A stretch of DNA of 64,000 nucleotides. Origin: Azolla caroliniana (Eukaryota > Plantae > Polypodiophyta). This document shows positions 12,286 through 58,281 of the stretch, in pieces. Position numbers and translations under genes: made by a program. Where the stretch lies: contig JBHGNT010000016.1 of the NCBI GenBank assembly GCA_043228905.1, forward strand, positions 7,564,001 through 7,628,000, in the 5' to 3' direction. Under the pieces are notes generated by a model. That model was not told the origin of the DNA. It did no database searches and was given only the letters and a program-made list of their open reading frames with translations. How positions within the stretch are numbered: position 1 is the stretch's first letter; every line of letters begins with the position of its first letter.

Positions 12286-12292
12286 CAGTTTT

Positions 12293-23953: not shown

Positions 23954-24386
23954 TGTTACCGGCCGGCAAAGGAGTCCAGAGTGTGAAACAGGGAGTTATT
24001 TAATTAGTAGGAATGGTTGTAAGTAAGCTATGAGTGTGGATGGACGAACCGGAATCAGTATGCCGTTCCAGATCCGGACCGATCCCGAACAGGTGCGGAT
24101 GGCACCGTTTTGTAATACAAACCGGAAACCTATTTAAAGGCCCGGATACAATGTAATGAACAACGGTTAATTAATAAAGCTTAGTGTTGTTATCTCTCTG
24201 TGATAATTGCTGTTCTGCATTCATTGTTATATCTTACGCGTGTGATTATTAAAGACGATCATGCTAAGTAACCTAATTAAGTCGGATTAATCGTTGAGTC
24301 TAATCCTGTTGCCGTAACACCCCTTTGGTGAAGTGTCTTCCGTAGACACCCTGTGTTAGGCCATTGTCCGGCCCTAAGAGTTAACA
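23954..24386 (+). repeat. 3' LTR of element D
   Basis: Direct repeat of 11853-12285. Confidence 0.95.
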
Positions 24387-25924
24387 AAGAAGATTATCAA
24401 CTCTGGATCATCCAATGAAAACCGGCCTGAGGACACAAGGACCTACCCGATTGAAAACCGGGTGTTAGCCGGTAACCGGATGACACTCAAGGAACCGGCC
24501 AGATATGGACAGGAAACCAAACCGACCGAAGAAGAAGAAAAAGAAGAAGAAGACACTGGAATCGGACAAGATCCCGAATTGGATGAGGATGAGGAGCAGA
24601 CGCAAGAACCGGTAGTCAGAAACCAGGGACAAAGATTTCTGGATGCAGAGCATGTGTTGCTAACCGATGAGGGCGAGCCGCAAAGCTTCAAAGAAGAAAA
24701 GAGAGACACCCACAACTGCAAGTGGTTGAGTGCCATTCAGGACGAGATGGATTCCCTGCATGAGAACCACACGTATGAACTGACGGAGTTGCTGAAAGGG
24801 AAGAGAGCACTCTGGAACAAGTGGGTGTATGATCTGAAACCGAGAGACGCCGGAAATTCACCAAGGTACGAAGCCCGGATAAAGGTTTCAAGACTGCATT
24901 CGTACATGGTGAACTCGAAGAAGAGATCTGCATGCATCAACAGGAAGGATTTGAGAAGAAAGGGAAGGAGCACCTAATGTGCCGGCCGAAGAAGAGCTTA
25001 TACGGACTGAAACAAACTCCCCGGAAATGGTACCGGAAGTTCAACTCCTTCATGACCGACCAAGGGTACCACAAAACACAAGCCGATCACTATGTGTTTG
25101 TGAAGAAATTTGACGGAGGAGATTTCCTTATACTCCTCCTGTATGTGGATGATATGTTGATCGTTAGACGAGACCAAGGCAAGATTCGAATGCTAAAGAA
25201 GGCCCTGAACCCGACCTTCTCAATGAAAGACTTGGGACCAGCAAGACGGATATTGGGAATGCACATCATTCGGGACCGGTCGAAGAAGTTGTTGTGGTTG
25301 TCACAGAACAAGTACGTGACAGAGGTGCTTCAACGGTTTAAAATGTTGGAGGCGAAGCCAGTCGGATCAACACTTCCGGCAAACTGCAAGCTATCCGGAA
25401 AACAAAGCCCGAGAAGGAAGGAGGAGAAGATAGATATGATGAAGATTCCATGGAATCGAATATGTCGGTTGATGCGGATACTAGCCGGTCTATATCCGGA
25501 TATGTCATGACTTATGTAGGGGGGATTGTTTCGTGGCAGTCGAGGTTGCAAGAGACGGTTGCGTTGTCAACCACGGAGGCAGAGTACATGGCAGTTGTAG
25601 AAGCCGGTAGGGAGATAATCTGGATGAAGGACTTCATCGGAAAGCTAGGAGTCCAACAAGAGGAATACCAGCTCTAGTGCGATAGTCAAAGTGTCATTCA
25701 CCTTGCAAAGAACGCGGCCTACCATTCCCGGATGAGACATATCCAGCGGAGGTACCACTGGATCCGGGAGAGAGTAGAAGATCAAGAGTTCGTGCTGACG
25801 AAGATCCATCCGGAGGAGAACGGGTCAGATATGCTGACCAAAGTGCTGACAACTGACAAACGGGACGCGTGCCGAAAGCGGATCGGGCTAACAAGACATC
25901 CCATGCCGGAGTGAAGGGAAAGAT

Positions 25925-28885: not shown

Positions 28886-30016
28886 TGTCGTGAAAATCTG
28901 TCACTATGTGCGGATCGTGAGGCGAAACCGCTGGGGTCCTAGACCAGAAGGATTCGAAGTTTGCACTAGCTATAGCAAGAAAGTATTTAAGATAAATTGA
29001 AAGAGAGAGAGATTGAGATAAGATAGAACGCTTGACTTTAAATTGAGAGAGATTGAAATGAAGAGAGAGATTAAGATTGAACCCTTGACTTTAGATTTAA
29101 GGAACAAGATATATCATCAATTGGATAATTAATTTTCTTCTTATTAAATTCTTGATTCATACATTGCCCCCTTTTGATCTTTTTCATCCACTCTTTTATA
29201 GATGTTCACATGCATATGATACATGTGAGGGTACAAGACATGCATACAATGGATGGAATGCATGTGATACATGTTTGCCGTTTGGTGCTCATGCATTACA
29301 TGTGATGCATGACGACCATGTCACTCATTCAACCTCTAATATGAGAATTTACATGAAAAAGTATAATGATAGAAAAAGCATTTTTAGAGAAATGACTTGG
29401 ATTAGTGCTAAGTTTATTGCCTCCTATCTTGGGGGTGCCAGGTTTAAGCCTTGCTTGCATCCCTTTGAATACAAAATTTTACTAGGTTTTTTAGTCTAGA
29501 TGATTTTGTTCGTTTCACACCGAAATCATCGCGATCAACCTATCCGATCGATCTGTCTATCCGGTTCGCATACAACCCGGTGATCCGGTCCATCCGGTTC
29601 TGGTGCCGGTTTGGCCGCCGTCGCCGTCCGGTCCGGTCCTCCAAAACCATTATGAGTAGTTAAGCCACACTTTAGCCCAAGAACATTCTGTGCTCCACAC
29701 ATAGACAAAAAGTAATAAGTTCTAGCTCTACTTATATACTGTGGGATCCTGATTTGTCCTATCTATGTGCGATATCTCATAGTTTTGTTTTTCTCTTCTT
29801 CTTCTTAAACTTCACATTCAGATAACTTGACATTTAGTTGTCCGTTTTCAAATGTAGTAAAGTACATTCGGAAGCTCTTGAAGACATCCATCTTTTCGTA
29901 CCAAGATATTAAAATAATCTAAAATAATATCTTTACTATTATTGTTTCATATCGTGTGTGAAGAACCACACTCGATTTTGTATGTTCCTCGCAATTTTCA
30001 CACCATTTCCGAAGAT
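28886..30016 (-). repeat. 3' LTR of element G (~1.13 kb; inner terminus lost by a ~10-bp deletion)
   Basis: Direct repeat of 32455-33739. Confidence 0.88.
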
Positions 30017-30515
30017 TCACCCCCACCAAACCGCACGTCCTCCGTTACGTGCCAAGAAGAGAGTGTGTGAGATTTCGGCTATGGTGATTAGTACAATTCC
30101 TCCATTTTGAGCATGTCTATTTCTTTCACTCAAATCATTGTCGCCACCCAATCTACCATATCATTCGTTTTTTCTTTGCTTTACGATGACTAGTTTTCAT
30201 TGTCCCTTGTTCTCTTCTTGAGGATAACCGTTTAGGTCTCATGGATGTTCCACCTTTGTCTCGATCATCTCCTTGCTAAAGGCACTTTGACCCATCATGC
30301 ATTTTTTTTTTCTATCTTCCTCCACAAGTCTTTATTTGAATAATGGCAATGAATACCCCATGTAGTACTTTTAAGTGCATGTCTACTTCAAGATTCTTAT
30401 GCAACCATGCTCTATGCTTCTCACTTTGTTCACTTTCATGATACAATCTCATGTTAGAGTTGACAATCTTCACACTAGCATCTTTGCTACATGTTTTGAT
30501 CACATTCTTCGGATC

Positions 30516-32416
30516 CTAATGGCTTGCTTGGCCACCGTCATCCCTTGTCATACTTTGCTCAAACTCTTTGTTGTACGCATCGACTTTTGTCTCTATGCTT
30601 TGCTTGACCTCTTCCTCCCACACATCAGCTTCAACACTTGCTTCTTCGTCGTCATTGTCCTTCTCTTGGGTCTTACATCGATTAATGCCCAAGTCTCCAG
30701 AACGATTGTGGAGAGATTCATATGTATTTGTCGGCCACTCCCCAACATCATTATTTGCAACAACTCGGACCTTTGCTTCCCCGCCATCATCTTCTGTCTC
30801 TTGGGTCTCACGTTGGCTTTGAACCACAACTGCCCAAGTCTCTAGAACATGTGCGAAGGAATCCGTTTGTCTTTGGTCAATTGCCTTCGACACCATTTTC
30901 TTGATGTCATCTTTCACATTAGATTTGAACTCCCCTTGTTGCCACCTTCCGTCTCTTGGGTCTTCTGTTGGTTCTCGAACGCAACTGCCCAAATCGCTGG
31001 AACCAATGTGGGGATAGTTTTGTCACTGCCATCATTCACCATCGACTCGTCCATATCTATCTTCGCCGCAATGTTGTGCACACCATCTTGGTCCCGCCCC
31101 TTACTACCACCTTCCATCTCTTGGGTCTTATGTTGGCTCTCTACAACTGCCCAAGTCTCTGGAACTTCTATGAAGGAATCCTCGACACGGCCATCTGCCA
31201 TTAATTCTTCCATAGCCACCTCTGACTCGATGTCATTTTTCATGGCTATCTCTTCAATCTCCTGGGGCTCGTACCCATTGACCCTCTTGATTGAACAAGC
31301 TTCGATTATGCTTCTCTCTTCGTCGCATGTATTCATTTCGACCTTCGTCTCCTCGCCGACACCTTCCGTCTCTTGGGTCTCACGTTGGTTCTTGGATGCA
31401 ATTGCCCAAGTCTCTGGAACAAGTGCGGAGAAAATGTGACCATGGTCGTTGTCGACGCTTGTTATCTTGTTCATAGTCACCTCCTCGATGTCATCTTTGG
31501 CAGCTAGATCCTCAATTACACTAGCCTAACACTCTTTATCTCCATTGATGCAAGCTTTGATTAGGCTTGTTCCTTCATCATCCGATGTTTTGAACACGAT
31601 GCGTGTTCCGAAACATTCATCCTCCCTCAGAGTGGCCTTCTCCATCCTCGAGTCGTCATCAATCTTCTTTTCATGTAGGTTTCTTTGTTTAGGCGTCTAG
31701 ACTTCTTTAGGTGGTCTTGATTTTTCTACGCTTGACCTTACCAAGTCAATATCATCAAGCAATTGACGACGTCTATCGATCTGGTTGCACGCTCGCTTCA
31801 CTACAGCCCAATCTGTCACAAGCCCATTTTCTTGGGTTTCATCTTAAACAAGAGTCCCCAATTCTCGTTTATGCTTCATGTCCACGACTTTCAAGAAGTA
31901 CAAAGTCTTGTCCTCAAGCAACATTTGGTCCTTGTTCGGAAGATGACTATACATCTGGTCGAATTCGTCGTACACCCTCGAGGCACTCATCTTCTTATTT
32001 TTCTTCTCTATCCACTTCATCAAGGCATGTCGAGTCATTTTCGACAAATCTTCCGTCGCGATCTCCGCTAATATTGCTTTCTCAAACTCAAACCATGTAG
32101 TATTGCCTTCTTGAAGGTCGATGACGCGTCTTTAGATGTTGTTGGCGACTACTCTCTTGAAACTTGTAATTTGATGTGCTTCAGACATGTCCCTTTGATT
32201 CATCTCACTTTTGTATGCATCAAGGAACTTCGTAATGTTCCTTCCATCAAATTTACCCTCAAGCTCCACGACACGGTCGATGACCTTCTCCACGCTCGCA
32301 TCGTTGTCTCGAGATCTCATCATTTGTTCGACAATAGCATCATCCTTTCGAATTCTCCGGCTAGATTGCTTGAGGATGCCATCTCCAAGCATTGGTCGAT
32401 CCTCCACTTGATCCAT
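30516..32416 (-). pseudogene. gag: Broken gag-like ORF of G with repeated ETWAV...QRETQETE motif
   Basis: GKFDGRNITKFLDAYKSEM (homologous to H, I, J), then acidic repeats in ORFs 30914-31480 and 30516-30992. Confidence 0.75.
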
Positions 32417-32429
32417 CCTACCGCCTCTA

Positions 32430-32446
32430 TCACGTCGGGTTCACCA
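32430..32446 (-). promoter_or_regulatory. PBS, tRNA-Trp (element G)
   Basis: Minus strand TGGTGAACCCGACGTGA, complementary to the plant tRNA-Trp 3' end ...UCACGUCGGGUUCA-CCA. Confidence 0.85.
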
Positions 32447-32454
32447 CTTAATTA

Positions 32455-33739
32455 TGTCGTGAAAATCCGTCACTATGTGCGGATTGTGAGGCGAAACCGC
32501 CAGGGTTCTGGACCGGAAGGATTCGAAGTTTGCACTAGCTTTAGCGAGAAAGTATTTAAGAAAGATTGAAAGAGAGCTCGAGAGACTGAGATAAGATAAA
32601 ACGCTTGACTTTAGATTGAGAGATATTGAAATGGAGAGAGAGATTAAGATTAAACCCTTGACTTTAGATTTGAGGAACAAGATATATCATCAATTGGATA
32701 ACGAATTTTCTTCTTATTAAATTCTTGATTCATACATCGCCCCCTTTTTATCTTTTTCATCCAATCTTTTATAGATGCCCCCATGCATATGATACATGTG
32801 AGGGTACAAGACATGCATATAATGCATCGAATGCATGTGATGCATGTTTGCCATTTGGTGCTCATGCATTATACATGTGATGCATGTTAACCATGTCACT
32901 CATTCAAGCTCTAATATGAGAATTTACATGTGAAAGTATAATGATATAAAAAACATTTCTAGAGAAATGACTTGGCTTAATGGTAAGTTTATTGCCTCCT
33001 GTCTTGGAGGTGCAAGGTTCAAGCCTTGCTTGCATCCCTTTGAATACAACTTTTTACTAGCTTTTTTAGTCTTGATGATTTTGTTCGTTTCACACCGAAA
33101 TCATTGCGATCAACCTATCCGATCGATCCGTCTATCCTGTCTGCATCCGACCCGATGATCCGGTCCATCTGATCCAGTTTGGTTCCGGTGTCGGTCCGGT
33201 CGTTGTTCCCGTCCAGTTCCGGTTCCGGTTCCGCACCGTTCGCCAGTCCGGTTTCGGTTCCGTCGTCGTCCGTCCGTTCCAGTTCCGGTTCCGTCTCTGT
33301 CCGGTGTCATCGTCCGTCTATTCCGGTTCTGTCGTCGTTCTTCCGGTCCGGTCCTCCAAAACCAGTACAAGTAGTTAAGTCACAATTTAGCCCAAGCACA
33401 TTCTGTGCTCCACACATAGACAAAAAGTAATAAGTTCTGGCTCTGCTTATATATTGTGGGATCCTGATTTGTCCTATCTATGTGGGATATCTCATAGTTT
33501 TGTTTCTCTTTTCTTCTTCTAAAACTTCACATTCACATAACTTGACATTTAGTTGTTCGTTTCAAATGTAGTAAAGTACATTCGGAAGCTCTTAAAGACA
33601 TCCATCTTTTCTTACCAAGATATTAAACTAATCTAAAATAGTATCTTTACTATTATTGTTTCATATCATGTGTAAAGAACCACACTCCATTTTGTACGTT
33701 CCTCGCAATTTCACACCATTGCCAAAAATCTTCACGACA
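32455..33739 (-). repeat. 5' LTR of element G (1285 bp)
   Basis: Adjacent to the PBS; TG...CA with TGTCGTG/CACGACA inverted ends. Confidence 0.9.
32973..33055 (+). promoter_or_regulatory. tRNA-like Pol III module in G LTR, antisense to the element
   Basis: A box TGGCTTAATGG 32973-32983; B box GGTTCAAGCC 33016-33025 within hairpin GCAAGG-TTCAAG-CCTTGC; TTTTT 33051-33055; decayed copy 29398-29450. Confidence 0.7.
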
Positions 33740-34215
33740 GCGGTCAAGTGGATACTCTGGTACTTGAAAGGCACCTCAAGTATGTGCCTCTGATTCGGCT
33801 CAGGAAAACCCCAACTTGAAGGATTCACGGATTCAGATATGTTAGCTAATGTGGATACCAATCGGTCTACATCCAGATATCTCATGACTTATGCAGCGGG
33901 AGCCGTATTGTGGCAATCGAGGCTGTAGAAGTCTGTTGCACTATCGACAATGGAAATGGAGTACATGGCAGTTGTAGAAGCTCATAAAGAGGTAATCTGG
34001 ATGAAGGACTTCATCGGAGAGCTAGGGATCCAACTATTGTAATAAACTAATTACTTTAGAATACGTAAAAAGAAAAGAAAATATAAAAACAAAAAGCTAC
34101 ACTATATGAAAAGGTGCACCCCAAAAATAGGGTAGCACCTATAATCACCACATTCCCTTTCTGTGTGGTCGGTTGGTTGTAGAGAGAGAGACAAAACATT
34201 CATTTAATAAAGTTT

Positions 34216-34264
<49 letters not shown>

Positions 34265-34348
34265 ATTTCTCAGAACGGTGAAGGAGTTCAACCCCACCAA
34301 GAATTGTGTTGCGGTGTTAATAACGAATGTGTGAATTAAAGAAATGAT

Positions 34349-34915
34349 TTTTGACCATGTCAAACGATGGAGTGATAGTGAATGTGGTGGCAAATGCCAC
34401 CCAGGTATCGTCTCCCACTTATCACATTGAAAAATTGAATGATAAAAACTATCAAGCATGGCGTATGACCATCGAAAATATATTAGAACAACATGACTTG
34501 TTAAATATTGTTGACGGAACCGATGTGTGCCCCGACATTAATGTCCCCACAAATGCACTTGACGTGCAAACATGGAAGCGACGTGATTTAAATGCTCACT
34601 TAGAACTTCTCCTTCATATGGAGGACACACTTTTCGACCATGTCAAATGGTGGAGTGATAGTGAATGTGGTGGCAAATGCCACCCAGGTATCGTCTCCCA
34701 CTTATCACATTGAAAAATTGAATGATAAAAACTATCAAGCATGGCGTATGACCATCGAAAATATATTAGAACAACATGACTTGTTAAATATTGTCGATGG
34801 AACCGACGTGTGCCCCGACATTAATGTCCCCACAAATGCACATTGACGTGCAAACATGGAAGCGGTGTGTTTTAAACGCTCGCTTAGAACTTCTCCTTCA
34901 TATGGAGGACACACT
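34349..34915 (+). repeat. 283-bp tandem duplication of the K gag start
   Basis: ATGs at 34357 and 34640 start near-identical peptides. Confidence 0.9.
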
Positions 34916-35274
34916 TAAGCAAAGTGTGAGAACCTTGACTACCTCCAAACAAATATGGGATAGATTAGAGGTTGATTACCTCCATGCGGACATTACATCC
35001 CAAGTTGCAAATTTAAAAACTTTAATAAATATGAATATGAATTAAAATGATGATGTTGACACATTTGTTCAAAAATGGATGTGATCCTTTAAGGACTTAG
35101 TTTGCCAAATTCCATTCAATCCGCCCTCTTGTTAGCCACCCTACCCCCATCATGACACAACTATCCCTTTGCGAAGGGTGTATATTTGGAAAACTCTCTA
35201 ACTCGCCATTTCCATCCCATCCTACAACGACCACTAAACCCCTCCAACTAGTACATATGGATATATGTGGTCCT

Positions 35275-35575
35275 TGTTGGGAAATCGGTCCCTCCGGATG
35301 GGATCAAGTTATAAATGAAGAGGACCCGATGAGAACCGGAAGAGATCCGGAAACCGGATCAGGTGGACCCAGTGACAACCAGACTACATTCGGAAACCAA
35401 ATAGGATGGACCCGGTGAGAACTGGAAGAGAAGAAATATCTGTAAATATGTTTTGAGTAAAAACCTATTGAGGCTATATTTGTAAATAGCCCTAAGTTCA
35501 TATAAGTATAAATATGAGTTAGGGCAATCACTTTAGGTGTACTTGTCATATTGTTGTAACTATTGTACAGAGAGT

Positions 35576-35612
<37 letters not shown>

Positions 35613-35889
35613 TACAGAGCAATACTCTGTTGTAACCGTCGCTTGGCGAAGAAACAGAGCTCGAGGTCATTGCCTCTGAGTCTCTGATTATACCTTTCTC
35701 ATATAGTGATAGTTTGGAGTTTGTGGGCTCCCGTGGTTTTTCCCTATTAGGGTTTTCCACATAAACATCCTGGGTATTTTCTTTTGGTGTACAAGTATTC
35801 ATCTCTATTCCCATTTTTCTGTTAGATCCTTAAACGAAGATACCTAAGACTCGGTTGTGGCCGAGCAGTATTTCGTGCCATTCTCTACA
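35275..35889 (+). repeat. 5' LTR of element L
   Basis: TGTTGGGAAATCGG...CTACA; matches 51406-52015. Confidence 0.92.
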
Positions 35890-37288
35890 AACTAGTATCA
35901 GAGCGAATAACACAGGAAATGGAAGAATAGTGCAGCGGCATGTTCAAGCTCATCAGCTCCAACTACTTAGTGTGGAAGTCGAAGATGAGGGATATGTTGG
36001 TGGTTAAAGATTTTTTGTTGCCGGTTCAATTCGGGTACAAGAGACCGGATAAGATCGACGGCACAGTGTGGGAAGTGATGCACATGAAGACAACGGCCTA
36101 CGTCCAGTGTTTCATCGACATGAGCCTGTACAACAACTTCAATGAAGAGAGCAAGGCTCATGAACTCTAGGAGAAGATCAACATCATGTTCCAGAACAAG
36201 AATGTCGTTAATCGAGTTTCGGTATTTCAGAAGCTAGTGAGGCTCTAGTACCAAGATGGCTCCAGTATGGCGGAGCACATCAATGCCGTCCAAGGATTGA
36301 TCCACCAGGCAACCTCATTGGAAGTACCTCTCACCGATGAGTTACTCGCATTACTCCTACTCGGTTCTCTCCCGGATAGTTGGGAGACATTAGTTGTCAC
36401 GTTGGGCAACACCGAGCCGGAAGAAAAGCAGTTGTCCCTAGCAAGGGTAAAATCAAGCTTGCTAGATGAAGAAGCTCGCCGGAAGGACCGAGAGTCCAGA
36501 ACCGATCCGAAGGCCTTGGTCACGGAAGATGACAATAATCGTGGAAGACGCCCCAAATTTGGGAAAAATCGAGAACGAGGTCAAAGTCAAGGGGGAGGCC
36601 CACGTGCTTCTATTGTGGGAAGCCGGGACAGTTCTAGAAGAACCGTCGGCATTTCCGGAAAGATTTGTCGAACCCAGACAAGGTTGTCTTCCCTTCTTGA
36701 AGCTTGACAGCGCGCCTTTGGACGTTGTTGGCGACCACTCTCTTGAAACTAGCGATTTGATGTGCTTTAGACATGTCCCTCTGATTCATCTCTATTTTGT
36801 ATGCATCAAGGAACTTTGTAATGTTCCTTCCATCAAATTGACCCTCGAGCTCCACGACAGAGTCAACGGCCTTCTCCAAGCTAACATCGTTCTCTCGAGA
36901 TCTCATCATTTGTTCGACGATTAGCACTATCCTTTCGAATTCTCCCGCTTGATTGCTTGAGGATGCCATCTCCAAGTATTGGTCGATCCTCGACTTGATC
37001 CTTCCTACCGCCTCTTTGACGTCGGGTTCACCACTTAATTATGTCGTGAAAAATCCGTCACTACGTGCAAATCGTGAGGCAAAACCGCCGGAGTTCTAGA
37101 CCAAAAGGATTCGAAGTTTGCACTAGCTTTAGCGAGAAAATATTTAAGAAAGTATTGAAAGAGAGAGAGATTGAGATAAGATAGAACGCTTGACTTTAGA
37201 GTGAGAGAGATTAAAATGGAAAGAGAGGTTAAGATTGAACTCTTGACTTTAGATTTGAAGAACAGAAAATATTATCAATTGGATAACG

Positions 37289-37858
37289 AATTTTCTTCTT
37301 ATTAAATTATTGATTCATACATAGCTCCCCCCCATTTGATCTCTTTCATCCCCTCTTTTATAGATGCCCCCATGCATATGATATATGTGGTGGTACAAGA
37401 CATGCATACAATGCATGGAATGCATGTGATGCATGTTTTCCATTTGGCGCTCATGCATTACATGTGATGCATGACAACCATGTCACTCATTCAAGCTCTA
37501 ATATGAGAATTTACATGTGAAAGTATAATGATATAAAAAATATTTTTAGAGAAATGACTTGGCTTAGTGGTAAAATTTTCTTCTTATTAAATTATTGATT
37601 CATACATAGCTCCCCCCCATTTGATCTCTTTCATCCCCTCTTTTATAGATGCCCCCATGCATATGATATATGTGGTGGTACAAGACATGCATACAATGCA
37701 TGGAATGCATGTGATGCATGTTTTCCATTTGGCGCTCATGCATTACATGTGATGCATGACAACCATGTCACTCATTCAAGCTCTAATATGAGAATTTACA
37801 TGTGAAAGTATAATGATATAAAAAATATTTTTAGAGAAATGACTTGGCTTAGTGGTAA
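37289..37858 (+). repeat. 285-bp tandem duplication inside the I LTR
   Basis: 37289-37573 repeated at 37574-37858, apparently identical. Confidence 0.9.
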
Positions 37859-37983
37859 GTTTATGCCTCCTATCTTCCAAATTTGGTATACAAATTTTCA
37901 CTAGGTTTTTTAGTCTATATGAGTTTGTTCGTTTCACACTGAAATCGTCGCGATCAACCTATTCGATCGATCGATCTATCCGG

Positions 37984-38729
37984 TGTCGTAGTGTATTTTG
38001 TACACTACGTGAAAAACTTATAAAGTACCAATTTAATAAATATGAATAAATAGTAGAAAATATTAAAATTTATATAACATGCATAGGGCAAGATTCGAAC
38101 CTTGCACCTCCATGTTAATAATGTAATGTCTTACCATTACACTAGCATTTCATTAGTGGTCAAAAGTAAATGTTCCACATAGAAAGGTTAGTTCACCTAG
38201 GATAAACTTTAGTTAAAAGAAAACGCATGCTAAAAGAAAAAGCTATGCATGCACATCTAGCGTGCATGAACGCCATAGTTGATAAAAAAACGCACAAGTC
38301 AGAAAAAGCATGGTCACTTTAGATAAAGCATATATTCTATCTATAGGAAAAGCATGGAGTCTATAGTTAGAGAAGAAAAAGCATGGATTGCTAAGACTCT
38401 CTCATCTCTATATAAGGATGAGGAGCACAATGTAAGTGTGTGAAAAATATTTGGAAACTGGATATGTTTCTAAAAAAACACCAATTAATAAACTATACTC
38501 GTGGGATTCACGAGAATTCTATATCATTCTCTTTCAACCGAAGTTTATATTCTTATATTCATATTGATTAATCTAATACAATACACTCGTGGGATTCACG
38601 AGTTTGCTATAACTCTTTCTTACAACATATTTATATTCTTATTAGCCTTATAACTCTCCTCTTCCTAGTCCAAAACCCCAGCGGTTCCCACCCGACTCAC
38701 GCAACGATCTGGCGCCGAAAGGCACGACA
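37984..38729 (+). repeat. 5' LTR of element H
   Basis: TGTCGTAG...GCACGACA; TATA-like CTATATAAG ~38408. Confidence 0.95.
38086..38146 (-). promoter_or_regulatory. tRNA-like Pol III module in H LTR, antisense to the element (second copy 40592-40652)
   Basis: Minus strand: A box TAGTGTAATGG (38144-38134), B box GGTTCGAATC (38101-38092), hairpin GCAAG-GTTCGAAT-CTTGC, TTTT about 20 nt downstream. Confidence 0.72.
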
Positions 38730-38733
38730 CAGT

Positions 38734-38750
38734 TGGTGAACCCGACGTGA
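38734..38750 (+). promoter_or_regulatory. PBS, tRNA-Trp (element H)
   Basis: TGGTGAACCCGACGTGA, after a 4-nt spacer from the LTR. Confidence 0.88.
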
Positions 38751-38767
38751 AGGCGGGTGGCAAGGAG

Positions 38768-40555
38768 ATGGAGAATCAACAAGAGGCGATGAACATGATG
38801 ATGATGATGTTCGAGAGAATGCTACAAGAACAACGCGAGATGTCGGAGATCACGACAGTAGTACAACGGCTCGTGCAACAGAACGGGCAATTCGATGGAA
38901 AGGACGTGTCACGCTATCTACGTGACTACAAAATGGAGATGTTGCGATATGGTATCTCAGAAAGATTGCAAGTGTTATCTTTCAACCGGGTGGCTACGGA
39001 TGAGCTTCAAGAGAGAATCCACGAGATACGGCAACGAAGCCCGATGTGGGAGTCCTTTGAAGAAGCTATACGAGACACATATGACTATCTAAGACCGAAG
39101 CGGACGAGGACATGGTCCACGAACGGCGGTCAACAGTGGGTGAAAAGCGGCCACCGACTACCACCGAAGGAGAGCTTGATGCGGAAGGGTTCGGAGATGC
39201 ATGAAAAGTCGCAAGTCGACATTGAAGGGGAGCTTAAAACCGAACCAAAGTCGAGGCCAACAAAGGAAGAGGAGGAGGAAGATCGAGGACGAAAGGGTAT
39301 CCCCACACCGGTTCCAGAGACTTCGGCGGTTGTGCCCGTGCACCAACGTGAGACCGGAGAGACGGAATGTGTCGGCGGAAAAGTGGAGGACCGGAAGGGC
39401 AACGAGGAAGACAAAGTAAATGAGCACGAACGAAGGGATTCCTTCACCATTGTTTCGGAGACTTCGGTACTCGAGCCCGGGTGTCGACATAACACCGAAG
39501 ATAAGGAAAGTGGCGGCAACGAAACGAAGGTCGAAGCCGATGCATACAAAGGAGAGATAGCCAAGGAGAACATGGCTATGGGTGAAACAACGGAAGATGA
39601 TAATACCGAGGATTCCTACCCACTAATTCTAGAGACTTCGGCGGTTGTGTCCGAGAACCAACGTGAGACCGGAGAGACGGGAGGTGGCAGCAAGGAAGGT
39701 AAAGTCGGAAGCCGGTTCGGATGGAAGATGATCCATCTGAAATTCCGATGTAAACAAAAGCATGACAACGCGAAGGTCGGGTCTACGATGGGAGAAGCAT
39801 GTAATACGGAGCACGCACTACGGCACCAAAAGAAGCACGTGCTACGGCGTAAAAAGAAGCACGCGCTACGGTGCAAAAAGAAGCATGCACTACGGGGTAA
39901 TACGACGCATGCACTACGATGGAATACGAAGCATGCGCTACGGCCTAATACGACGCATGCGCAACATCGAGAAATAAAGCATGCATTAAAGCCGCACAAG
40001 GACCTAACAGCGAGCGCGTATTCGGAGGTCGACATCGACGCGTGGGTAGAACCTACGGAAGACAAGTGCGGAGTGGAGAGAGACAACACACCGAGATGCT
40101 CAAGAGTACCACAAGGGACCATGACAACCACTCATGGCAATGCAAAGAATGAACGAAGATTATGGTGGATCGGATGGCGACAATGGTTCGGGTGGAAAGA
40201 TTGGATGTGCTCAAAATGGAGAGACAAAGCCGACATAGCAAGAGAAACGGAGGGTACTACAAGTAAAGATGAATTACGAGGGCCGGTAATTGGAGACTGG
40301 ATAGAGCCTGCAACCGAACAAAACTGGAAACCGGGTGAAGTCGACAACCAAAAACGGGAGACCGAATGGGGCCGACAACCAAAAATGACCAGCGACGAAA
40401 CCAACCATGCGGAGAATGGACGGACGAGACTAACAATCACCGACAACTTCGGCACATACCGGAGGATGTGCGGGTTCGGAGGGGGCGAGTGTCGTAGTGT
40501 ATTTTGTACACTACGTGAAAAACTTATAAAGTACCAATTTAATAAATATGAATAA
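38768..40555 (+). CDS. Intact Gag-like protein with acidic and basic repeat regions (frame open from 38747; stop lies inside the 3' LTR)
   Basis: GQFDGKDVSRYLRDYKMEM...WESFEEAI capsid-like N-terminus; 3x ETSAV...RETGET motif; 8x xHALRxxx; Trp-rich patch. Confidence 0.8.
   Translation: MENQQEAMNMMMMMFERMLQEQREMSEITTVVQRLVQQNGQFDGKDVSRYLRDYKMEMLRYGISERLQVLSFNRVATDELQERIHEIRQRSPMWESFEEAIRDTYDYLRPKRTRTWSTNGGQQWVKSGHRLPPKESLMRKGSEMHEKSQVDIEGELKTEPKSRPTKEEEEEDRGRKGIPTPVPETSAVVPVHQRETGETECVGGKVEDRKGNEEDKVNEHERRDSFTIVSETSVLEPGCRHNTEDKESGGNETKVEADAYKGEIAKENMAMGETTEDDNTEDSYPLILETSAVVSENQRETGETGGGSKEGKVGSRFGWKMIHLKFRCKQKHDNAKVGSTMGEACNTEHALRHQKKHVLRRKKKHALRCKKKHALRGNTTHALRWNTKHALRPNTTHAQHREIKHALKPHKDLTASAYSEVDIDAWVEPTEDKCGVERDNTPRCSRVPQGTMTTTHGNAKNERRLWWIGWRQWFGWKDWMCSKWRDKADIARETEGTTSKDELRGPVIGDWIEPATEQNWKPGEVDNQKRETEWGRQPKMTSDETNHAENGRTRLTITDNFGTYRRMCGFGGGECRSVFCTLREKLIKYQFNKYE
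39806..40000 (+). repeat. 24-nt coding tandem repeat (~8 units)
   Basis: GCA(C/T)GC(A/G)CTACG core every 24 nt, encoding (E/K/T)HALRxxx. Confidence 0.85.
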
Positions 40556-41235
40556 ATAGTAGAAAATATTAAAATTTATATAACATGCATAGGGCAAGAT
40601 TCGAACCTTGCACCTCCATGTTAATAATGTAATGTCTTACCATTACACTAGCATTTCATTAGTGGTCAAAAGTAAATGTTCCACATAGAAAGGTTAGTTC
40701 ACCTAGGATAAACTTTAGTTAAAAGAAAACGCATGCTAAAAGAAAAAGCTATGCATGCACATCTAGCGTGCATGAACGCCATAGTTGATAAAAAAACGCA
40801 CAAGTCAGAAAAAGCATGGTCACTTTAGATAAAGCATATATTCTATCTATAGGAAAAGCATGGAGTCTATAGTTAGAGAAGAAAAAGCATGGATTGCTAA
40901 GACTCTCTCATCTCTATATAAGGATGAGGAGCACAATGTAAGTGTGTGAAAAATATTTGGAAACTGGATATGTTTCTAAAAAAACACCAATTAATAAACT
41001 ATACTCGTGGGATTCACGAGAATTCTATATCATTCTCTTTCAACCGAAGTTTATATTCTTATATTCATATTGATTAATCTAATACAATACACTCGTGGGA
41101 TTCACGAGTTTGCTATAACTCTTTCTTACAACATATTTATATTCTTATTAGCCTTATAACTCTCCTCTTCCTAGTCCAAAACCCCAGCGGTTCCCACCCG
41201 ACTCACGCAACGATCTGGCGCCGAAAGGCACGACA
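40490..41235 (+). repeat. 3' LTR of element H
   Basis: Same length and sequence as the 5' LTR. Confidence 0.95.
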
Positions 41236-42454
41236 CCGGTTCATCCAGTCCGCATCCAACCCGGTGATCCGGTCTGATCTGGTTGTGGTGTTGGTGCCGG
41301 TCCCCATCCTGTTCTAGTTCGGCGCCGTCCATCTGTTCCAGTTCCGGTTCCGTCACCGTCCGTCCGGTTTGGTCCTACAAAACCATTATGAGTAATTAAG
41401 CCACAATTTAGACCAAGAACATTCTGTGCTTCACACATAGACAAAAAGTAATAAGTTCTAACTCTGCTTATATACTGTGGGATCCCGATTTATCCTATCT
41501 ATGTGGGATATCTCATAGTTTTATGTTTCTCTTCTTCTTCTCAAACTTCACATTCACATAACTGGACATTTAGTAGTCTATTTCAAATATAGTAAAGTAT
41601 ATTCAGAAGGTCTTGAAGACCTCTATTTTCCCGTATCAAGATATTAAGCTAATCTAAAATAATATCTTCACTATTATTGTTTTTTGTCTTGTGAGAAGAA
41701 CTACACTCGATTTCATACATTCCATGTAATTTTCACACCATTGCCAAAATCTTCACGAAAACGTTCATAGATGACCACAATCGGAAGCTGTGGGTCTCAC
41801 CATTGAAGACGAAGGATCAAGTGTTATCCGTCTTCAAGGAGCTCCACGATAGAGTGGAAAGATAAACCGGACGAACAGTTGAAGGCGGTTTGAGTAGATA
41901 ACTGAGTAGAATACCGGGGGCAGCTCGAGGAGGACTACCGGTCGAAGGGAATCCGGCTGGAGTTTATTGTGCCGAAGATGGCGAAACTAAAGGCGTTGGT
42001 CGAAAGGATGAACCAAACCATGATGGAGACAGTCCGGAGCATGCTTGCACATGCCAAGTTACCCAAGAGGTTTTAGGCCAAGGTATTGACGACGACCTAT
42101 ATGATAAACAGATCACCCTCAGTAGCCTTAGACGGAGACACACCGCAAAGAGTATGGACCGGTAAGGATGTATCCTACCGGCATCTGAAGGTGTTCGGGT
42201 GTCTTGCATACGTGCATGTAGCGAAGGACAAGAGAGAAAAGCTGGATCCAAAGTCCCAGCCATGCATATTCCTTGGATACGGGGATGATGAGTTCGTTTA
42301 CCGTGTGTGGGATCTGGTCGGCAAGAAGGTGTTCCGAAGTCGGGACATAGTCTTCATGAAAGACAGGACCATTTCCGACTGGGATTCGGAGAAGAAGGTG
42401 ATGAACTCTGCATCATCCAATGAAAACCAGCTTGAGGACACAAGGATATACCCG

Positions 42455-42966
42455 TGTTATGTACACATAACGTTGGTGAGGGTAGGTCATTAATATGTTA
42501 TGTACACATAACGTTGGTGAGGGTATGTCACTAATATTTACATTAGTGAAGGGTATGTTCACTATTATTAAAAAGGGGACTAATGATTGGATAGAATGAA
42601 TGATATGTGCATGCACTATCATGATTTAGACAACCAATGAATAGAGAGCCTTTTAGAAAGGCACATCTATTCAAGGGGCCTAGGAAAAGGTATAAATATG
42701 AGGCTTAGCTACCCTCATAGGGATCACGTCGGAAGGCTGCTGTCGTAGACACCGGTGGTGCGGGCTAGGCTTTCGTCTCGACGATCGTGTTTATCTCTTC
42801 CAAGGTATTAGTCATCCTAATATCCGGCGGTATGGGACGTCGGTGGTAGGTTGGCTATGTCTAGATCATAGCTCGGGGGTGGTCGGGTGGAACGGGTTCT
42901 TCTATCCAATCTATTTTCTTCCTTTTTACTTGATTTGGTCTATTGATTAGTGATAGACTCTTAACA
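42455..42966 (+). repeat. 5' LTR of element M (512 bp, includes a 41-bp terminal duplication)
   Basis: Matches 49125-49595 apart from a few substitutions and the extra unit. Confidence 0.94.
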
Positions 42967-43214
42967 GTGGTATCAGAGCTTTTACTAACAATTTTTTTGT
43001 TGTTTTGATGTTTTTTGCGTGTGAGCGAGGGGGATCTAACAAGGCTCGTCATGCTCTTCTCAGGATCAAAACAACACTCTAAACCCGGTATTCTTCTTTT
43101 TTGATCTCTTCTCTTTTTCTATTATGCGTTCTTTATGGTCGAATCAAATTGGTATTACGTTTTATTCTCTTTCTTTCTACCTCCTACTACGCTACGATTT
43201 TACTTATTATTATG

Positions 43215-43735
43215 CATCGGGCCGAGCGTTTTTGCACTAATCGCACACGCTCAACTCATGGCCTTTTGCATATTGCGATATATATCCCACTCTCTCCTCT
43301 CTTGAACTCTTACGATAATAATTATTCTTGTGCATTGGGTCGAGCGTGTTTGCTCTAATCGCACACGCTTATCTCATGGCCGTTTTGCATATGATGTTGA
43401 GTATACCACTCTTCCCCTCTATTGAGCCATCACTTGGCCGATTCTAAGGGATGATGTGGCCTTGACGAGGTGTATGTTGCCTACCTATGCCACTCTACTC
43501 TCTATTAAGCCATCAATTGGCCGATTCTATGGGATGTTGTGGCCTTGACAAGGTATATGTAGCTTACATATGCCACTTTCCTTTTTAATTAGCCATCAAT
43601 TGGCCGATTCTAAGGGATGATGTGGCCTTGACGAGGTATATGTCACTTACCTATGCCACTTTCCTCTTTAATTAGCCATTACTTGGCCGATTCTAGGGAT
43701 ATGTGGTGGTCTTGAGGAGGTGCATGTCAACTACC
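43215..43735 (+). repeat. Tandem repeats in the M leader (2x ~117 bp, then 4x ~84 bp)
   Basis: AGCCATCAATTGGCCGATTCTA-GGGATG-TGTGGCCTTGAC units at ~43424, 43508, 43591, 43674. Confidence 0.85.
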
Positions 43736-44717
43736 CTAGGGTTTCGTATCTTAGGGCATGTTTGATTCCATACACCTAATTGTTGATTATTCTAATTAAA
43801 TTTTAATTTCATAAGTATTGTTTCACTTATATGATTTTCTAGTAATTATTATTTACCCGCCCACAATTAACTCTCCTTTTTCCACTTCCTTTTCATGTAT
43901 AAAGTATTTACATCGTTTATTTTAATGTAACCTTTACGTGTAGACTATTTTTTTCGTATGGAGTGGCTTGTTGAACGATTTTTTTTCAACGGGTCATCTA
44001 GGTTTAACTCTTATCATCAAGCCTTAGAAAACGAGTAAAACCATATGAGTTCCCTTATTGATGTTTTACTCATGGATTTGAGTATTACATCTTTGCGCAC
44101 AACACCGTCATCACTTGTATCAATTTGTGGCTTATGTCACAATTGTGCAAGTTATAACAATCATATTGGGATGTATATGTGCATACCTTGCACTTCCCAT
44201 TTATTTGTGACATTGTTTTTTTCGTAGGTAATACATCGGTTCTTTTTTTTACCCTTGTTTTCGTCACTACTTAACTCTTATGAGTAGTGCCTTATTTTAT
44301 CATTTTATCATCACGTTTGCTTATTGCTCGCAAGACTAGAATATTACTTGTGAGTGCACTTGTTTTTTCACGTAATACACTTTCTCGACCATATAATACA
44401 TGATGGGTTGGCATTAATATAAGGCTATCTAGGAAATTTCATTGATGTAAGAACCATGGTTGAGCCTCGGGGAGCCGCCATGATTACTCAAGATAGAGAT
44501 CCGAGAAATACATCTTAGCTATGTTTTCCCCCATGGTTTTTAAAACACCATAGTGTTACCATAGTTATCGGATCTCGAATCACATCTCATATGTCTAGAG
44601 GGTAAAGACATGAGATACTTTCTTGGATAAAGTTCTTTCAATCAAAATTTCAAGCATTCATTTTGCTTGTGTATTTTCTGAACCTCCTTATTTTATTGCA
44701 TACCCACAGCGTGCATC

Positions 44718-45420
44718 ATGGAACAAGTTTTGAACGCAGTTGGAACGATCTCTCCAAATGAGACCTCTCAACCCCAATCCGCATCTCGCACACAAGCTGA
44801 GATCACTATTGAGCAATTGCTCACTACTACCTTGAATCAATTGGCCGAAATGAGACAGGCCAATATGGCATTGGAAAAGAAATTCCAAGAATTAACTATT
44901 GAGTCCAAGAAAGAAGGTGAACCTTCCTTCGTAGTCACGCCTTTCAAGGGAGATAAGAAAGAAAGAACCGAGGAGGCCATTAGCACTTGGCTTGGTCGTT
45001 GGGAGTCTCACTTTGAGCTTCATCCCAAGCCCGATGCAGTAAAAATTGGTTATGTCGGTCGTGAGTTAGGTGGCCGAGCTGCTGCTTGGTGGCGTGGCCT
45101 AAGGACCGCAAAAAACTTACCCACAACTTGGGAAGGTTTCGTTGATGTTTTTAAGAAACAATTCTTGCAACCACCTTCTCAAACCGAACAAGTGCAACAC
45201 TTGCTCACATTGTCTAGTAAGCCATTTACCTCTCTCGAGGATTATGTGCATCACGCTCGGACCCAGATCCAAAAATCGGGACTTACGGGTGAGAAATGGT
45301 TTGTCGCTTGTTTTTTGAATGGTATTCCCAATGGGGATTATCATTGGATTGTCCATGACAAGGACCCCACAACTTTCGAGGAAGCCGTATTGTGCTGCGA
45401 TACCATAGGACTTCCAAGAA
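44718..45420 (+). CDS. gag: Gag capsid region of element M (frame changes before the zinc knuckle)
   Basis: PFKGD...ISTWL...LGGRAAAWW...[15 protein letters not shown]...FLNGI...PTTFEEAV. Confidence 0.85.
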
Positions 45421-49117: not shown

Positions 49118-49124
49118 GGGAGTA

Positions 49125-53852: not shown

Positions 53853-54771
53853 CAGGAGCAGTACTATGACAAAGAAGTATTTTCAGGAACAGTACTAAGA
53901 CAAAGAAGGAATTAGTACTAAAAGATGAGGATTAGTACTAAGGAAGGTGTAGAACTCTCAAGGGAAGGAAAGAGTGAGTGCGAGACAGAGAGAGAGAATG
54001 ATGATAACAAAAGATATATATTATGTTAAGAGAATATACAATAGTAGCTAGGAGGCTTAAGACTGGCGTTGAACTGATTTGGTTCGAAATAATGCCTTGT
54101 GCCTCCTTTTATAGTGTTCTCATGAGTACTCCTGAAGTTTCTAGAATGTTCCAGAGAAATCTGGAATATACATCAATTCTCTATAGTAAAACTTAAATGA
54201 AAATAATATCTTTCATATTACAACATATAGTCTAATGGTCAAGAGCTCAACCAATGTAACATAAGGTCATGGGTTCGAGTCTTTCCATATCATGACACTA
54301 TCCCCCCTTTAAAACGACGAGTGTCACAAGTCGTTTTGGATTGAGGACCCTGTTTCTCTAGATATTGACGATAGAGGTCTTCAAGAAGAGCACGAGCATT
54401 GGTCACATTCTCTATTGGTTCCCAAGTACGCTCGCTAGGACTATATCCTAGCCAATCGAGTAAATAGTAGAGCTTGTTGCGAACAATCTTGGAATCGAGG
54501 ATGGCGGCAACCTCGTACTCAGGTCCATCTTCAAGTTTGATTAGGGTTGGAGTTTGTTTAATATGATGTGGGATGGTGCTGTCTTGATAGGGTTCGAGGA
54601 GAGAACTATGAAACACCGGAAGTATCCAAAGTTGTGGAGGTAGATCAAGACAAAAAGCGACATCATTAATTTTTCTGATAATACATAAAGGACCTAATCG
54701 CTGATAATCCAACTTCTCACATGGGCGAGTAGTCTTGATGTGTCGTCGAAGTAGCCATACCCAACCTCCAA
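53853..54771 (-). mobile_element. Chromovirus fragment N (integrase C-terminus, chromodomain, PPT, truncated 3' LTR ~53853-54297)
   Basis: KLDYQRLGP...PVFHSSLLEPY...EYEVAAILDSKIVRNKLYYLLDWLGYSPSERTWEP; minus-strand PPT AAAGGGGGGATAG then TGTCATG. Confidence 0.88.
54228..54290 (+). promoter_or_regulatory. tRNA-like Pol III module at the U3 edge of the N LTR, antisense to the element
   Basis: A box TAGTCTAATGG 54228-54238; B box GGTTCGAGTC 54272-54281; spacing 44 nt. Confidence 0.65.
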
Positions 54772-55069
54772 TGTTAAAACTAACGCGAAATATGTAGAAT
54801 ATTACTCGGCCACAACCGAGTCTCAAATTGTGTCGTTTCTAATCGATCACCGAGAATTGGAATAGTGGTGAATACACGTACACACAGATAGTATGAGAGA
54901 GGGTACACAGTATGTTTATGTGGAAAACCCTAAATGGGAAAAACCACGGGAGTCCACAAACCCCAACTATCACTATGTCGAGAGGAATACAACAAGTGAA
55001 CACCAGAGGCAACAACCTCTTGCTCACAATCTTTGCCTGGCGGTGGTTACAACAGAGATTCACTCTGTA

Positions 55070-57231: not shown

Positions 57232-57881
57232 TGTCGTGAAGAAAACCGGCCAAAAGCGGAATCAGCGAAGAAGGGCGCATGAACCCGGCCCTACACGTCC
57301 CCACACTAATTACTACCTTGTACATAACTAGGAGTAGGACGGTGAGTGTAAATAGACTAGATGTGACGGATTGAATGTCTAGGAAATCGAGGAGTATCTC
57401 TGCCCGAAAGGATAGAGAATAAATTGATGGGAACGAGGGTGCAATGGCTAGCCTCGACGGCCTATAAAAGGGAGGGAAGAAGGAAGATGAAGGTATCGCG
57501 TTTTGCGGAGCGAGGACGAAGTGTTGTCGGACTGGGACCGAGCTCCCTCCTCCATCGTTCACTGGATTTCGGACTGAGTGGTCTACTTCGTGGAAAGCCC
57601 ATGTGCTTCCGGCAAAAGCTCCACTACGCAATCGGGGCTGTGTGCGGGCGTGAGCATTGTGTGTGTGTGTGTTTGCCTAAGTTGGGCCCGTTACCGGCTT
57701 GCTGGTTGTAATCGTTACTGATTTGTTATTAAGTCTTTGCTCTCTCTCTCTCTCTTCGTCCCTTTGTGTTCCTGCAAGCTGTGCTCTCTCTCTCTCTCTC
57801 TCTCTTCTTTCTCACGCTCCTTGGTTCAAGGCCCCCGCGGTCCCGCCTCTTTCCACACGCAAAGAGCGTAACAACACGACA
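57232..57881 (+). repeat. 5' LTR of element J (650 bp)
   Basis: Inverted termini, TATA-like CTATAAAAG ~57462, followed by the PBS. Confidence 0.85.
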
Positions 57882-58281
57882 TATTTGGTGAACTCGACGT
57901 GAAACAGGCGGCAAAGAAGTGAAGGATGAGGGAATCCGAGCTTGTTGAAGCTATGGTCGTAGCCGTCGACCGGCTAGTGAGCGCTCACGAGGGAACGGGT
58001 GCCCTCGACAGGGCCATTGAGTCGATCGTCGGCACCATAGGTCGATTCACTGGGAAGAATGCCATGAGATACTTGGAGGCCTATCGGGCCGAAATGATCA
58101 TGAGGGATATCTCGGTGGACATGTGGCTGTCCGGATTCCCTCGGGTGGGGACGTCGCGCATCCATGCAAAGGTGCTCGAGGTGTTGGCTGGATGCCAGAC
58201 TTGGGAGGAGTTCGAGCTATGGCTCCTCGAGATGTATGGGTTCGATGACTCGCTTCAACTGTCGAAGCGAGACTTCATGGC

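What the first reader, a model, noticed from the sequence alone, without database searches (positions are those of the whole stretch)
32973..40652. LTRs carry an antisense tRNA-like Pol III module conserved between diverged elements G and H
Seen: G reads TGGCTTAATGG-TAAG-[variable]-TGGAGGTGCAA-GGTTCAAGCC-TTGC and H (minus strand) TAGTGTAATGG-TAAG-[variable]-TGGAGGTGCAA-GGTTCGAATC-TTGC. A-to-B spacing is 43 nt in both, a T-arm-like hairpin is kept, a T-run follows within ~25 nt, and the anticodon-arm region and most of the LTR have diverged. The module is in both LTRs of each element, in U3, 200-270 bp upstream of the TATA box and pointing away from it. Established: Cassandra TRIMs carry 5S-type Pol III promoters in LTRs, and tDNA/TFIIIC sites act as chromatin barriers in yeast and mammals. 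Inference: a tRNA-type analogue, either a portable insulator protecting the LTR promoter in heterochromatin or a source of a ~90-nt RNA. I know no description of this in plant LTRs, but could not search.
Basis: partly seen in the sequence, partly recalled or inferred. Interest (0 to 1): 0.85.

Follow-up and report, generated by a model that had tools for sequence, protein, structure and literature searches.

The report
Gypsy LTRs carry backward tRNA promoter
Two lineages of plant jumping genes, including copies that encode their own enzymes, carry the control boxes of a tRNA gene in their end repeats, nearly always facing away from their own promoter; this likely works as a portable RNA polymerase III site that would shield the element's promoter from silencing, which is untested.

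Summary
The motif is real and more widespread than reported. G and H are non-autonomous, Phygy-like gypsy elements with a tRNA-primer site and 4-bp TSDs. Their LTRs carry an antisense A/B-box pair 43 nt apart, 199-264 bp upstream of TATA. Two corrections: G's 3' LTR copy has both boxes mutated, and no tRNA cloverleaf is kept.

Of 20 distinct relatives picked by gag alone and with U3 visible, 15 carry the antisense module, 3 a remnant, 1 a sense version and 1 none. Four of the five scoreable autonomous elements have it. An unrelated chromovirus LTR in the window (54228-54281) has it too.

Across families the tRNA promoter positions persist while the anticodon region scrambles. In older copies the boxes decay as fast as their flanks or faster. 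Orientation, a T-run terminator and a retained TATA box argue against it driving the element's own RNA, unlike Helenus or Cassandra TRIMs.

Best reading (0.45, untested): a selected TFIIIC/Pol III site acting as a tDNA-type barrier. The scan earlier found Helenus-type TRIMs in other genomes; my look-ups returned no antisense U3 module. Verdict: new variant of a known kind.

The parts
28886..33739 (-). Element G: non-autonomous Phygy-like gypsy element, TSD GCGG (28882-28885 / 33740-33743), broken gag-like internal region, inserted in a copia RT/RNaseH region
   Evidence: LTRs 91% identical
32455..33739 (-). G 5' LTR (TATA near 32770)
32430..32446 (-). G primer-binding site, same sequence as in H (its naming as tRNA-Trp is recalled, not from a call)
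32973..33055 (+). Intact tRNA-type module of the G 5' LTR: A box 32973-32983, AGGT 33008-33011, B box 33016-33025, T5 at 33051; antisense to G
29398..29450 (+). Mutated module of the G 3' LTR (G19 and C56 lost)
37042..41760 (-). G2: G-family 5' LTR interrupted by H; A box at 37845-37855 (duplicate at 37560-37570), B box deleted
37984..41235 (+). Element H: young non-autonomous Phygy-like element, identical 746-bp LTRs (37984-38729, 40490-41235), PBS 38734-38750, gag-like ORF from 38768, PPT before 40490, TSD CCGG
38066..38151 (-). Module of the H 5' LTR: A box 38144-38134, AGGT 38109-38106, B box 38101-38092, T4 24 nt downstream; antisense to H
40572..40657 (-). Identical module in the H 3' LTR
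54228..54281 (+). Third module (A box 54228-54238, B box 54272-54281) at the 5' tip of the 3' LTR of a chromodomain gypsy element on the minus strand (LTR tip 54297); antisense to that element
54314..54799 (-). SH3 + chromodomain end of that element's integrase, followed by the PPT
57232..57882 (+). Control: LTR T of the same Phygy-like lineage (near-identical PBS, gag groups with G), with no detectable module

Best explanation
The module is a tRNA-derived A-box/B-box pair kept in U3 of gypsy LTRs, and it likely acts as a TFIIIC/Pol III docking site that would hold chromatin open between the host flank and the LTR's own Pol II promoter, like a yeast tDNA barrier. SHOWN: the boxes, their spacing, U3 position upstream of TATA and orientation; presence in autonomous and non-autonomous Phygy-like elements and in a chromovirus LTR family; loss of the cloverleaf; family-level conservation of the tRNA-invariant positions. 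INFERRED: that it derives from a tRNA or tRNA-SINE head; that TFIIIC, TFIIIB and Pol III bind it; that any transcript is a ~80-100-nt by-product ending at the T-run inside U3; that the element gains because its Pol II promoter resists spreading silencing; and that antisense is favoured because Pol III then moves away from the TATA box.
For: (1) Census on loci chosen by gag only: 24 of 46 show U3, or 20 distinct elements. Of these, 15 have an antisense module, 3 a remnant, 1 a sense module and 1 none. (2) Autonomous elements with long gag and pol ORFs carry it: L012, L018, L026/027 and L015/016, with pol only 71-78% identical between most pairs. (3) In 12 aligned modules the invariant or nearly invariant columns are the tRNA promoter positions T8, A14, G18-G19, A21, AGGT, G53, T55, C56, A58 and C61 (tRNA numbering recalled). 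Mean identity across 8 Phygy-like families is 0.78 for the B box, 0.72 for the pre-B block and 0.71 just after the A box, against 0.42 in the anticodon region and 0.33-0.41 upstream. (4) With each group left out of the profile, the three TGTCA-tipped LTRs, L015, L027, L029 and G5 still score above 100 of 100 shuffles. (5) Contigs from 4 organism labels pile up on the B-box bin: about 10-58 times the flank bins for H, and about 12 to over 100 times for G. (6) A T4 or longer run lies within 35 nt of the B box in 10 of 11 LTRs. (7) Keeping both boxes without the RNA fold, in either orientation, matches the fission-yeast tDNA barrier, which needs the A box and Pol III and is orientation-independent (PMC2040200, passages). 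(8) C56 is intact in the young or high-coverage elements but lost in 9 of 10 older copies, which would fit selection during replication.
Against: There are no binding, chromatin or transcript data. In 11 older H-like LTRs, substitution rates are 20% (B box) and 16% (A box), against 11.5% elsewhere and 6.6% in U5. The C56-lost state needs only 3 changes on the LTR tree, so some subfamilies may replicate without C56. An autonomous family (L013/014), LTR T and 6 other gypsy/copia LTRs of the window have no module, so it is dispensable. Two of three G-family LTRs in the window have lost it. A-box identity across families is only 0.52, and B-box identity is inflated because rows were anchored on it. 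A CAA triplet, reported as important for plant Pol III initiation (PMC7544208, passages), is not seen upstream in G or H. Other U3 blocks are conserved as well or better: a CATGCA-rich block at 0.86-0.92 and TATA at 0.76, against 0.67-0.80 for the module. Contig depth is not copy number, and other repeats sharing the motif could add to the peaks.
Confidence: 0.45

Rival explanations
1. The block is an old tRNA/SINE capture that is now kept, where it is kept at all, for a non-Pol III reason such as a Pol II factor site around GAGGT. The A and B boxes are relics that ride along.
For: AGGT shows 0 substitutions in 40 site-copies while the A and B boxes vary more than the flanks in older copies. 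The B-box CpG is lost in 10 of 10 such copies. Module-free relatives exist. Kojima notes that 'not a few' Repbase LTRs hold tRNA-like pieces.
Against: A box, spacing, B box and T-run co-occur in elements with 31% identical gag, in a chromovirus LTR family and in the opposite orientation, while the sequence between the boxes is scrambled. All 30 profile hits scoring 15 or more but one (L023, 17.1) lie in LTR-type sequence, and none is a free-standing SINE.
Confidence: 0.2
2. The selected product is a short antisense Pol III RNA, complementary to U3 at the 3' end of the element's RNA, that regulates or chaperones it.
For: H and L011 fold strongly (z -4.55 and -2.88). In 13 H-like copies a long hairpin pairs in 84.5% of cells. 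The RNAalifold energy is -7.0 on the module strand and -3.6 on the other. A T-run terminator is present.
Against: Covariation does not exceed shuffles (113 of 500 reach the observed score). L012, L018, L027 and L015 do not fold better than shuffles. The chromovirus family pairs the B box with a different partner. The sense module of L015 could not make an antisense RNA.
Confidence: 0.15
3. The Pol III site dampens the adjacent LTR promoter (tRNA-gene position effect), giving the element self-restraint.
For: tDNAs are reported to inhibit neighbouring Pol II reporters 2- to 60-fold in budding yeast (PMC2040200, passage). The module lies 115-267 bp from TATA.
Against: Same anatomy as the barrier model, with no data to separate them. 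Intact boxes are seen in the youngest and highest-coverage elements.
Confidence: 0.1
4. The module is a landing pad or decoy for integrases that target Pol III sites, promoting nesting.
For: H sits about 130 bp from the G2 A box. Four of 46 loci have a TGTCA-tipped LTR inserted in or beside Phygy gag/LTR.
Against: G2's B box is deleted. The insertions lie at no fixed distance from a module. Loci were chosen by gag, which biases what is seen. The G and H TSDs fit the NCGN preference reported for Phygy.
Confidence: 0.07
5. Helenus/Cassandra mode: Pol III transcribes the element's genomic RNA from this promoter.
For: Same kind of promoter remnant in an LTR (PMC10886601). One family (L015/016) has it in sense.
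Against: The module is antisense in G, H and all other scoreable Phygy-like cases. The sense module is followed by T6 at +16 and eight more T4+ runs within the LTR. L012 and L018 have 11-12 T4+ runs in their internal regions. TATA is retained downstream.
Confidence: 0.03

Closest known systems
Helenus (TRIMp3; Kojima 2024, PMC10886601; text parts 1-5 of 6 read, supplement passages seen)
   Same: [quoted passage not shown]
   Different: Helenus are gene-less TRIMs of 311-1263 bp with short LTRs. Their box is sense: three sense B-box 8-mers occur 99 times in the supplement, and the 4 reverse-form hits shown are not antisense boxes. It is proposed to drive the template RNA. Here the LTRs are 480-1280 bp with TATA, the module is upstream of TATA and antisense, and it occurs in 2.5-5-kb non-autonomous and over 6-kb autonomous elements. 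Kojima argues that autonomous partners must use Pol II and analysed only TRIMs, though he notes other Repbase LTRs with tRNA-like parts.
Cassandra and Ajax TRIMs (as described in PMC10886601; the original Cassandra paper was not read)
   Same: Pol III promoter captured in a plant LTR (Cassandra).
   Different: They are 5S-type, and Cassandra's transcript starts in the 5S part and is the element RNA. Here the promoter is tRNA-type and points away from the element's transcript.
Phygy clade of non-chromovirus Ty3/gypsy (Neumann 2019, PMC6317226, passages)
   Same: TSDs GCGG and CCGG fit the NCGN preference. Gag relatives carry DUF4100. Pol relatives are in Riccia and Adiantum, and the pol has no chromodomain.
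   Different: No tree with REXdb Phygy references was run. The passages seen mention no tRNA-like module in the LTRs.
tDNA heterochromatin barrier at fission-yeast centromere 1 (PMC2040200, passages)
   Same: Needs the A box, TFIIIC and Pol III and is orientation-independent. This matches retention of both boxes in either orientation.
   Different: That is a real host tRNA gene, shown experimentally. Here it is a cloverleaf-less remnant carried by a mobile element, with function untested.

Membership tests
Helenus / TRIMp3 | tRNA-derived A/B boxes inside the LTR | tested here: met
   (motif, spacing and invariant positions; ARAGORN and Rfam give no tRNA call)
Helenus / TRIMp3 | TRIM size (about 1.3 kb or less) and no coding capacity | tested here: not met
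   H 3252 bp with a gag-like ORF, G 4854 bp; autonomous relatives with gag and pol carry the module
Helenus / TRIMp3 | Promoter oriented to make the element's template RNA | tested here: not met
   antisense in G and H; the sense case is followed by T6 at +16
Helenus / TRIMp3 | Two LTRs, PBS, PPT, TSD | tested here: met
Cassandra / Ajax | 5S rRNA-derived sequence in the LTR | tested here: not met
   no 5S or other Rfam match
Functional tRNA gene | Cloverleaf with anticodon arm | tested here: not met
   49% of cells paired, shuffle level; ARAGORN 0
tRNA-derived SINE insertion | Free-standing copies with tail and own TSD | tested here: inconclusive
   none among 30 profile hits in about 0.2 Mb; no whole genome held
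Phygy clade | NCGN 4-bp target site | tested here: met
   GCGG and CCGG; rule
Phygy clade | RT/RH/INT phylogeny with reference Phygy elements | not tested
   no reference sequences on hand; only homolog names and Pfam
tDNA-type chromatin barrier | TFIIIC and Pol III occupancy; blocks heterochromatin spread | not testable with these tools
   needs ChIP and reporter assays
tDNA-type chromatin barrier | Intact A and B boxes at tRNA spacing | tested here: met
   met in G 5' LTR, H, L011, L012, L015, C3; not met in G 3' LTR, G2 and most older copies

The most novel reading that the evidence does not exclude
Autonomous Pol II-driven gypsy retrotransposons of at least two lineages in non-seed plants have domesticated a tRNA promoter as a portable, orientation-tolerant chromatin barrier in U3. 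Each new insertion brings its own TFIIIC/Pol III site, which protects its promoter and seeds thousands of TFIIIC sites across the host genome. The host counters by methylation-driven loss of B-box C56.
Probability: 0.35. Interest if true: 0.85.

Novelty: new variant of a known kind. Interest (0 to 1): 0.62.

Why it matters
Pol III promoters in LTRs were known as the promoter of tiny gene-less elements. Here the same boxes sit in full-length Pol II elements in a position and direction where they cannot make the element's RNA, so if selected they must do another job. That would be a new anti-silencing (or self-regulating) device of plant retrotransposons. It would also be a high-copy source of TFIIIC sites in plant genomes and a natural test set for whether tDNA-type barriers work in plants: intact, C56-lost, deleted, sense and module-free LTRs exist side by side.

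Tried and rejected
No whole genome is held, so there is no genome-wide census. ARAGORN (window; 25 of the 46 loci) and Rfam (5 scans) found no tRNA. The cloverleaf was rejected on two alignments. Hairpin covariation is not above shuffles. Viral-contig scans: the G/H pattern gave 0, gag gave 0 confirmed of 86 candidates, and the chromovirus-type pattern gave 1 hit (L047) with no A box or tRNA, taken as chance. Expression: no RNA holder listed. One run guessed to be RNA (X23) has a 955-nt contig spanning the G stretch, which says nothing about a short transcript. 22 of 46 loci were dropped from the census because U3 was missing or interrupted. A loose A/B regex gave 19 hits against 3.4 in shuffles, and 6 of them lay outside LTR modules, so I replaced it with a box profile. 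Origin by read-through of the primer tRNA was considered: the module's 3' part does not resemble the PBS complement (direct reading), and I had no host tRNA set to test it. The gag tree has long branches for G and T and cannot decide between ancestral presence and lateral exchange. L041's LTR is only weakly similar to the chromovirus LTR, so its lineage is unassigned. Literature searches found no description of antisense tRNA-type modules in autonomous plant LTRs. The library lacks most subscription papers, Repbase entries were not searchable, and the REXdb supplements were not read.
Full report
ANATOMY. The window is a nest of copia and gypsy elements. G lies on the minus strand at 28886-33739, with LTRs 91% identical and TSD GCGG. 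H lies on the plus strand at 37984-41235, with identical 746-bp LTRs and TSD CCGG, and is inserted in the LTR of a second G-family copy, G2. Both have the same PBS (its naming as tRNA-Trp is recalled), a gag-like N-terminus and no pol. Their gags are 31% identical over 67 aa. The TSDs fit the NCGN preference of the Phygy clade (PMC6317226, passages). Gag relatives carry DUF4100 and pol relatives are named from Riccia and Adiantum, so these are Phygy-like elements of a non-seed plant. The clade was not tested by a tree.

OBSERVATION. The motifs, the 43-nt spacing, the antisense orientation and the 199/264-bp distance to TATA hold. The block is the only BLAST hit between the G 5' and H LTRs. The claim for both LTRs fails in G: its 3' LTR differs at 6 of 29 box positions against 59 of 708 overall (p 0.03). 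G2 has lost the B box. No cloverleaf is kept (49% paired, shuffle level), and neither ARAGORN nor Rfam calls a tRNA.

HOW WIDESPREAD. I fetched 46 metagenome loci by gag alone. 24 show U3 and collapse to 20 distinct elements; 22 were dropped as truncated or interrupted. Fifteen carry the antisense module (L002, 003, 009, 011, 012, 017/018, 023, 024, 026/027, 029, 030, 035, 036, 043, 044). Three carry a remnant (L021 marginal, L032, L042), one a different-looking module in sense (L015/016), and one none (L013/014). Among elements with long gag and pol ORFs, 4 of 5 scoreable have it; L022 lacks U3. These contigs may be collapsed assemblies of many copies.

A SECOND LINEAGE. A third module in the window (54228-54281) sits 16 nt from the tip of the 3' LTR of a chromodomain gypsy element, again antisense. 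Three more LTRs of that family (L008, L020, L024) and one unassigned LTR (L041) have it. With their own group left out of the profile, the three TGTCA-tipped LTRs tested (window, L024, L041), L015, L027, L029 and G5 beat 100 of 100 shuffles. LTR T of G's lineage and six other window LTRs score at shuffle level.

WHAT IS CONSERVED. In 12 family-level modules the fixed columns are those of a tRNA promoter (numbering recalled). Across 8 Phygy-like families, identity is 0.78 in the B box (anchored, so inflated), 0.72 in the pre-B block, 0.52 in the A box, 0.42 in the anticodon region and 0.33-0.41 upstream. Contigs of four runs under four organism labels pile up on the B-box bin of H: 531k, 207k, 265k and 111k, against 50k/57k, 14k/11k, 12k/5k and 6k/3k in flank bins. 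They do the same on G: 176k, 43k and 37k, against 15k/10k, 0.5k/0.1k and 0.6k/0.1k. None of the 40 variant rows shown falls in 38077-38144 (103 rows hidden) or in 33002-33042 (63 hidden). Loose ends upstream of G's B box in two other organism labels carry their own A-box-like motif. Depth is not copy number, and the TATA and U5 regions peak as high or higher. A T4+ run follows within 35 nt in 10 of 11 LTRs; the window chromovirus LTR is the miss. Backgrounds are 0.18-0.68, and their product for seven less related LTRs is about 3e-4 (hand arithmetic).

RESULTS AGAINST. Among 12 H-like LTRs the module (0.67-0.80) is no better kept than TATA (0.76) or a CATGCA-rich block (0.86-0.92). In 11 older copies, substitutions against positions shared by H, L011 and L017 are 20% in the B box, 16% in the A box, 11.5% elsewhere, 6.6% in U5 and 0 of 40 in AGGT. 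The B-box CpG is lost in 10 of 10 scoreable copies against 21 of 87 for other shared CpGs (Fisher 3.5e-6); C56 itself is lost in 9 of the 10. This fits a hypermutable site kept only in replicating lineages. A C-to-T excess on the non-template strand is described for transcribed genes (10.1101/229906, passages). But the tree needs only 3 changes, so inheritance of a C56-less state by active subfamilies is not excluded. No CAA triplet precedes G or H, although it is reported as important in plants (PMC7544208, passages). H-like modules form a long hairpin without significant covariation.

MECHANISM. The module cannot plausibly make the element's RNA: it points away from gag-pol, or in L015 runs into T6 at +16, and TATA is kept downstream. 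Retaining both boxes, their spacing and a terminator while discarding the fold, in either orientation, between the LTR's outer edge and the Pol II promoter, resembles the fission-yeast tDNA barrier. That barrier needs the A box and Pol III and ignores orientation (PMC2040200, passages). I therefore favour a TFIIIC/Pol III site protecting the LTR promoter (0.45). The rivals are a relic kept for another reason (0.2), a functional antisense RNA (0.15), self-restraint (0.1), a landing pad (0.07) and a Helenus-type promoter (0.03). Binding, transcription and benefit are all inferred.

KNOWN SYSTEMS. Helenus (PMC10886601; parts 1-5 of 6 and supplement passages) already establishes tRNA-derived boxes in LTRs, including a Selaginella family. 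These are short gene-less TRIMs with sense boxes. The paper notes that other Repbase LTRs hold tRNA-like parts but did not analyse them, so some prior sighting is possible. PMC13570524 (passages) only cites Helenus. G and H fail two Helenus criteria (size/coding and orientation). Ten literature searches found no report of antisense modules in autonomous plant LTRs. Earlier scan notes hold Helenus-type TRIMs in other genomes and tRNA-end cassettes replacing the PPT in this genome, but nothing like this module.

VERDICT. A real and widespread feature, and a new variant of a known kind. Selection on the boxes is likely at family level, and the function is open. Interest 0.62.

Noticed in passing
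window 54228-54297; L024 1100-1172; L020 914-990; L008 1200-1270: In the chromovirus LTR family the anticodon-arm region is an inverted copy of the B-box segment. It forms a hairpin (L024 z -3.73) and gives a second B-like box on the opposite strand.
   Followed up: partly
H LTR 38096-38097 and homologous sites in 10 loci: The B-box CpG is lost in 10 of 10 older copies, mostly by C-to-T on the module strand (7 TG, 2 TA, 1 CA), far more than other CpGs.
   Followed up: partly
L008, L020, L024, L041: Four of 46 loci have a TGTCA-tipped, module-bearing LTR inserted in or beside Phygy gag or LTR; possibly only an effect of abundance.
   Followed up: no
window 38240-38270 and 32780-32890: CATGCA-rich (RY-like, name recalled) repeats between the module and TATA are the best conserved U3 block in H-like LTRs and are also present in G.
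   Followed up: no
window 37289-37858: Exact 285-bp tandem duplication inside the G2 LTR that duplicates the TATA region and the A box.
   Followed up: no
window 22573-23899: Extra ORFs (coiled-coil, Q/E-rich, no Pfam hit) before the 3' LTR of a gypsy element with LTRs at 11853-12288 and 23954-24389.
   Followed up: no
window 42494-49595: Young chromovirus (LTRs 99% identical, 1252-aa pol frame with chromodomain) without the module.
   Followed up: partly
window 38768-40555 and 30020-32400: The internal regions of H and G continue from gag into degenerate 60-120-bp coding repeats shared between the two elements (72-80% identity) although their LTRs are unrelated; H keeps a 628-codon open frame.
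   Followed up: no
L042 300-1360: Two Phygy-like LTRs back to back with outward-facing PBS and gag, each with a decayed module.
   Followed up: no
L006 3000-6431 (-) and 6345-8367 (+): A 1137-aa uncharacterised ORF and a LINE ORF1-like frame next to a Phygy-like element.
   Followed up: no
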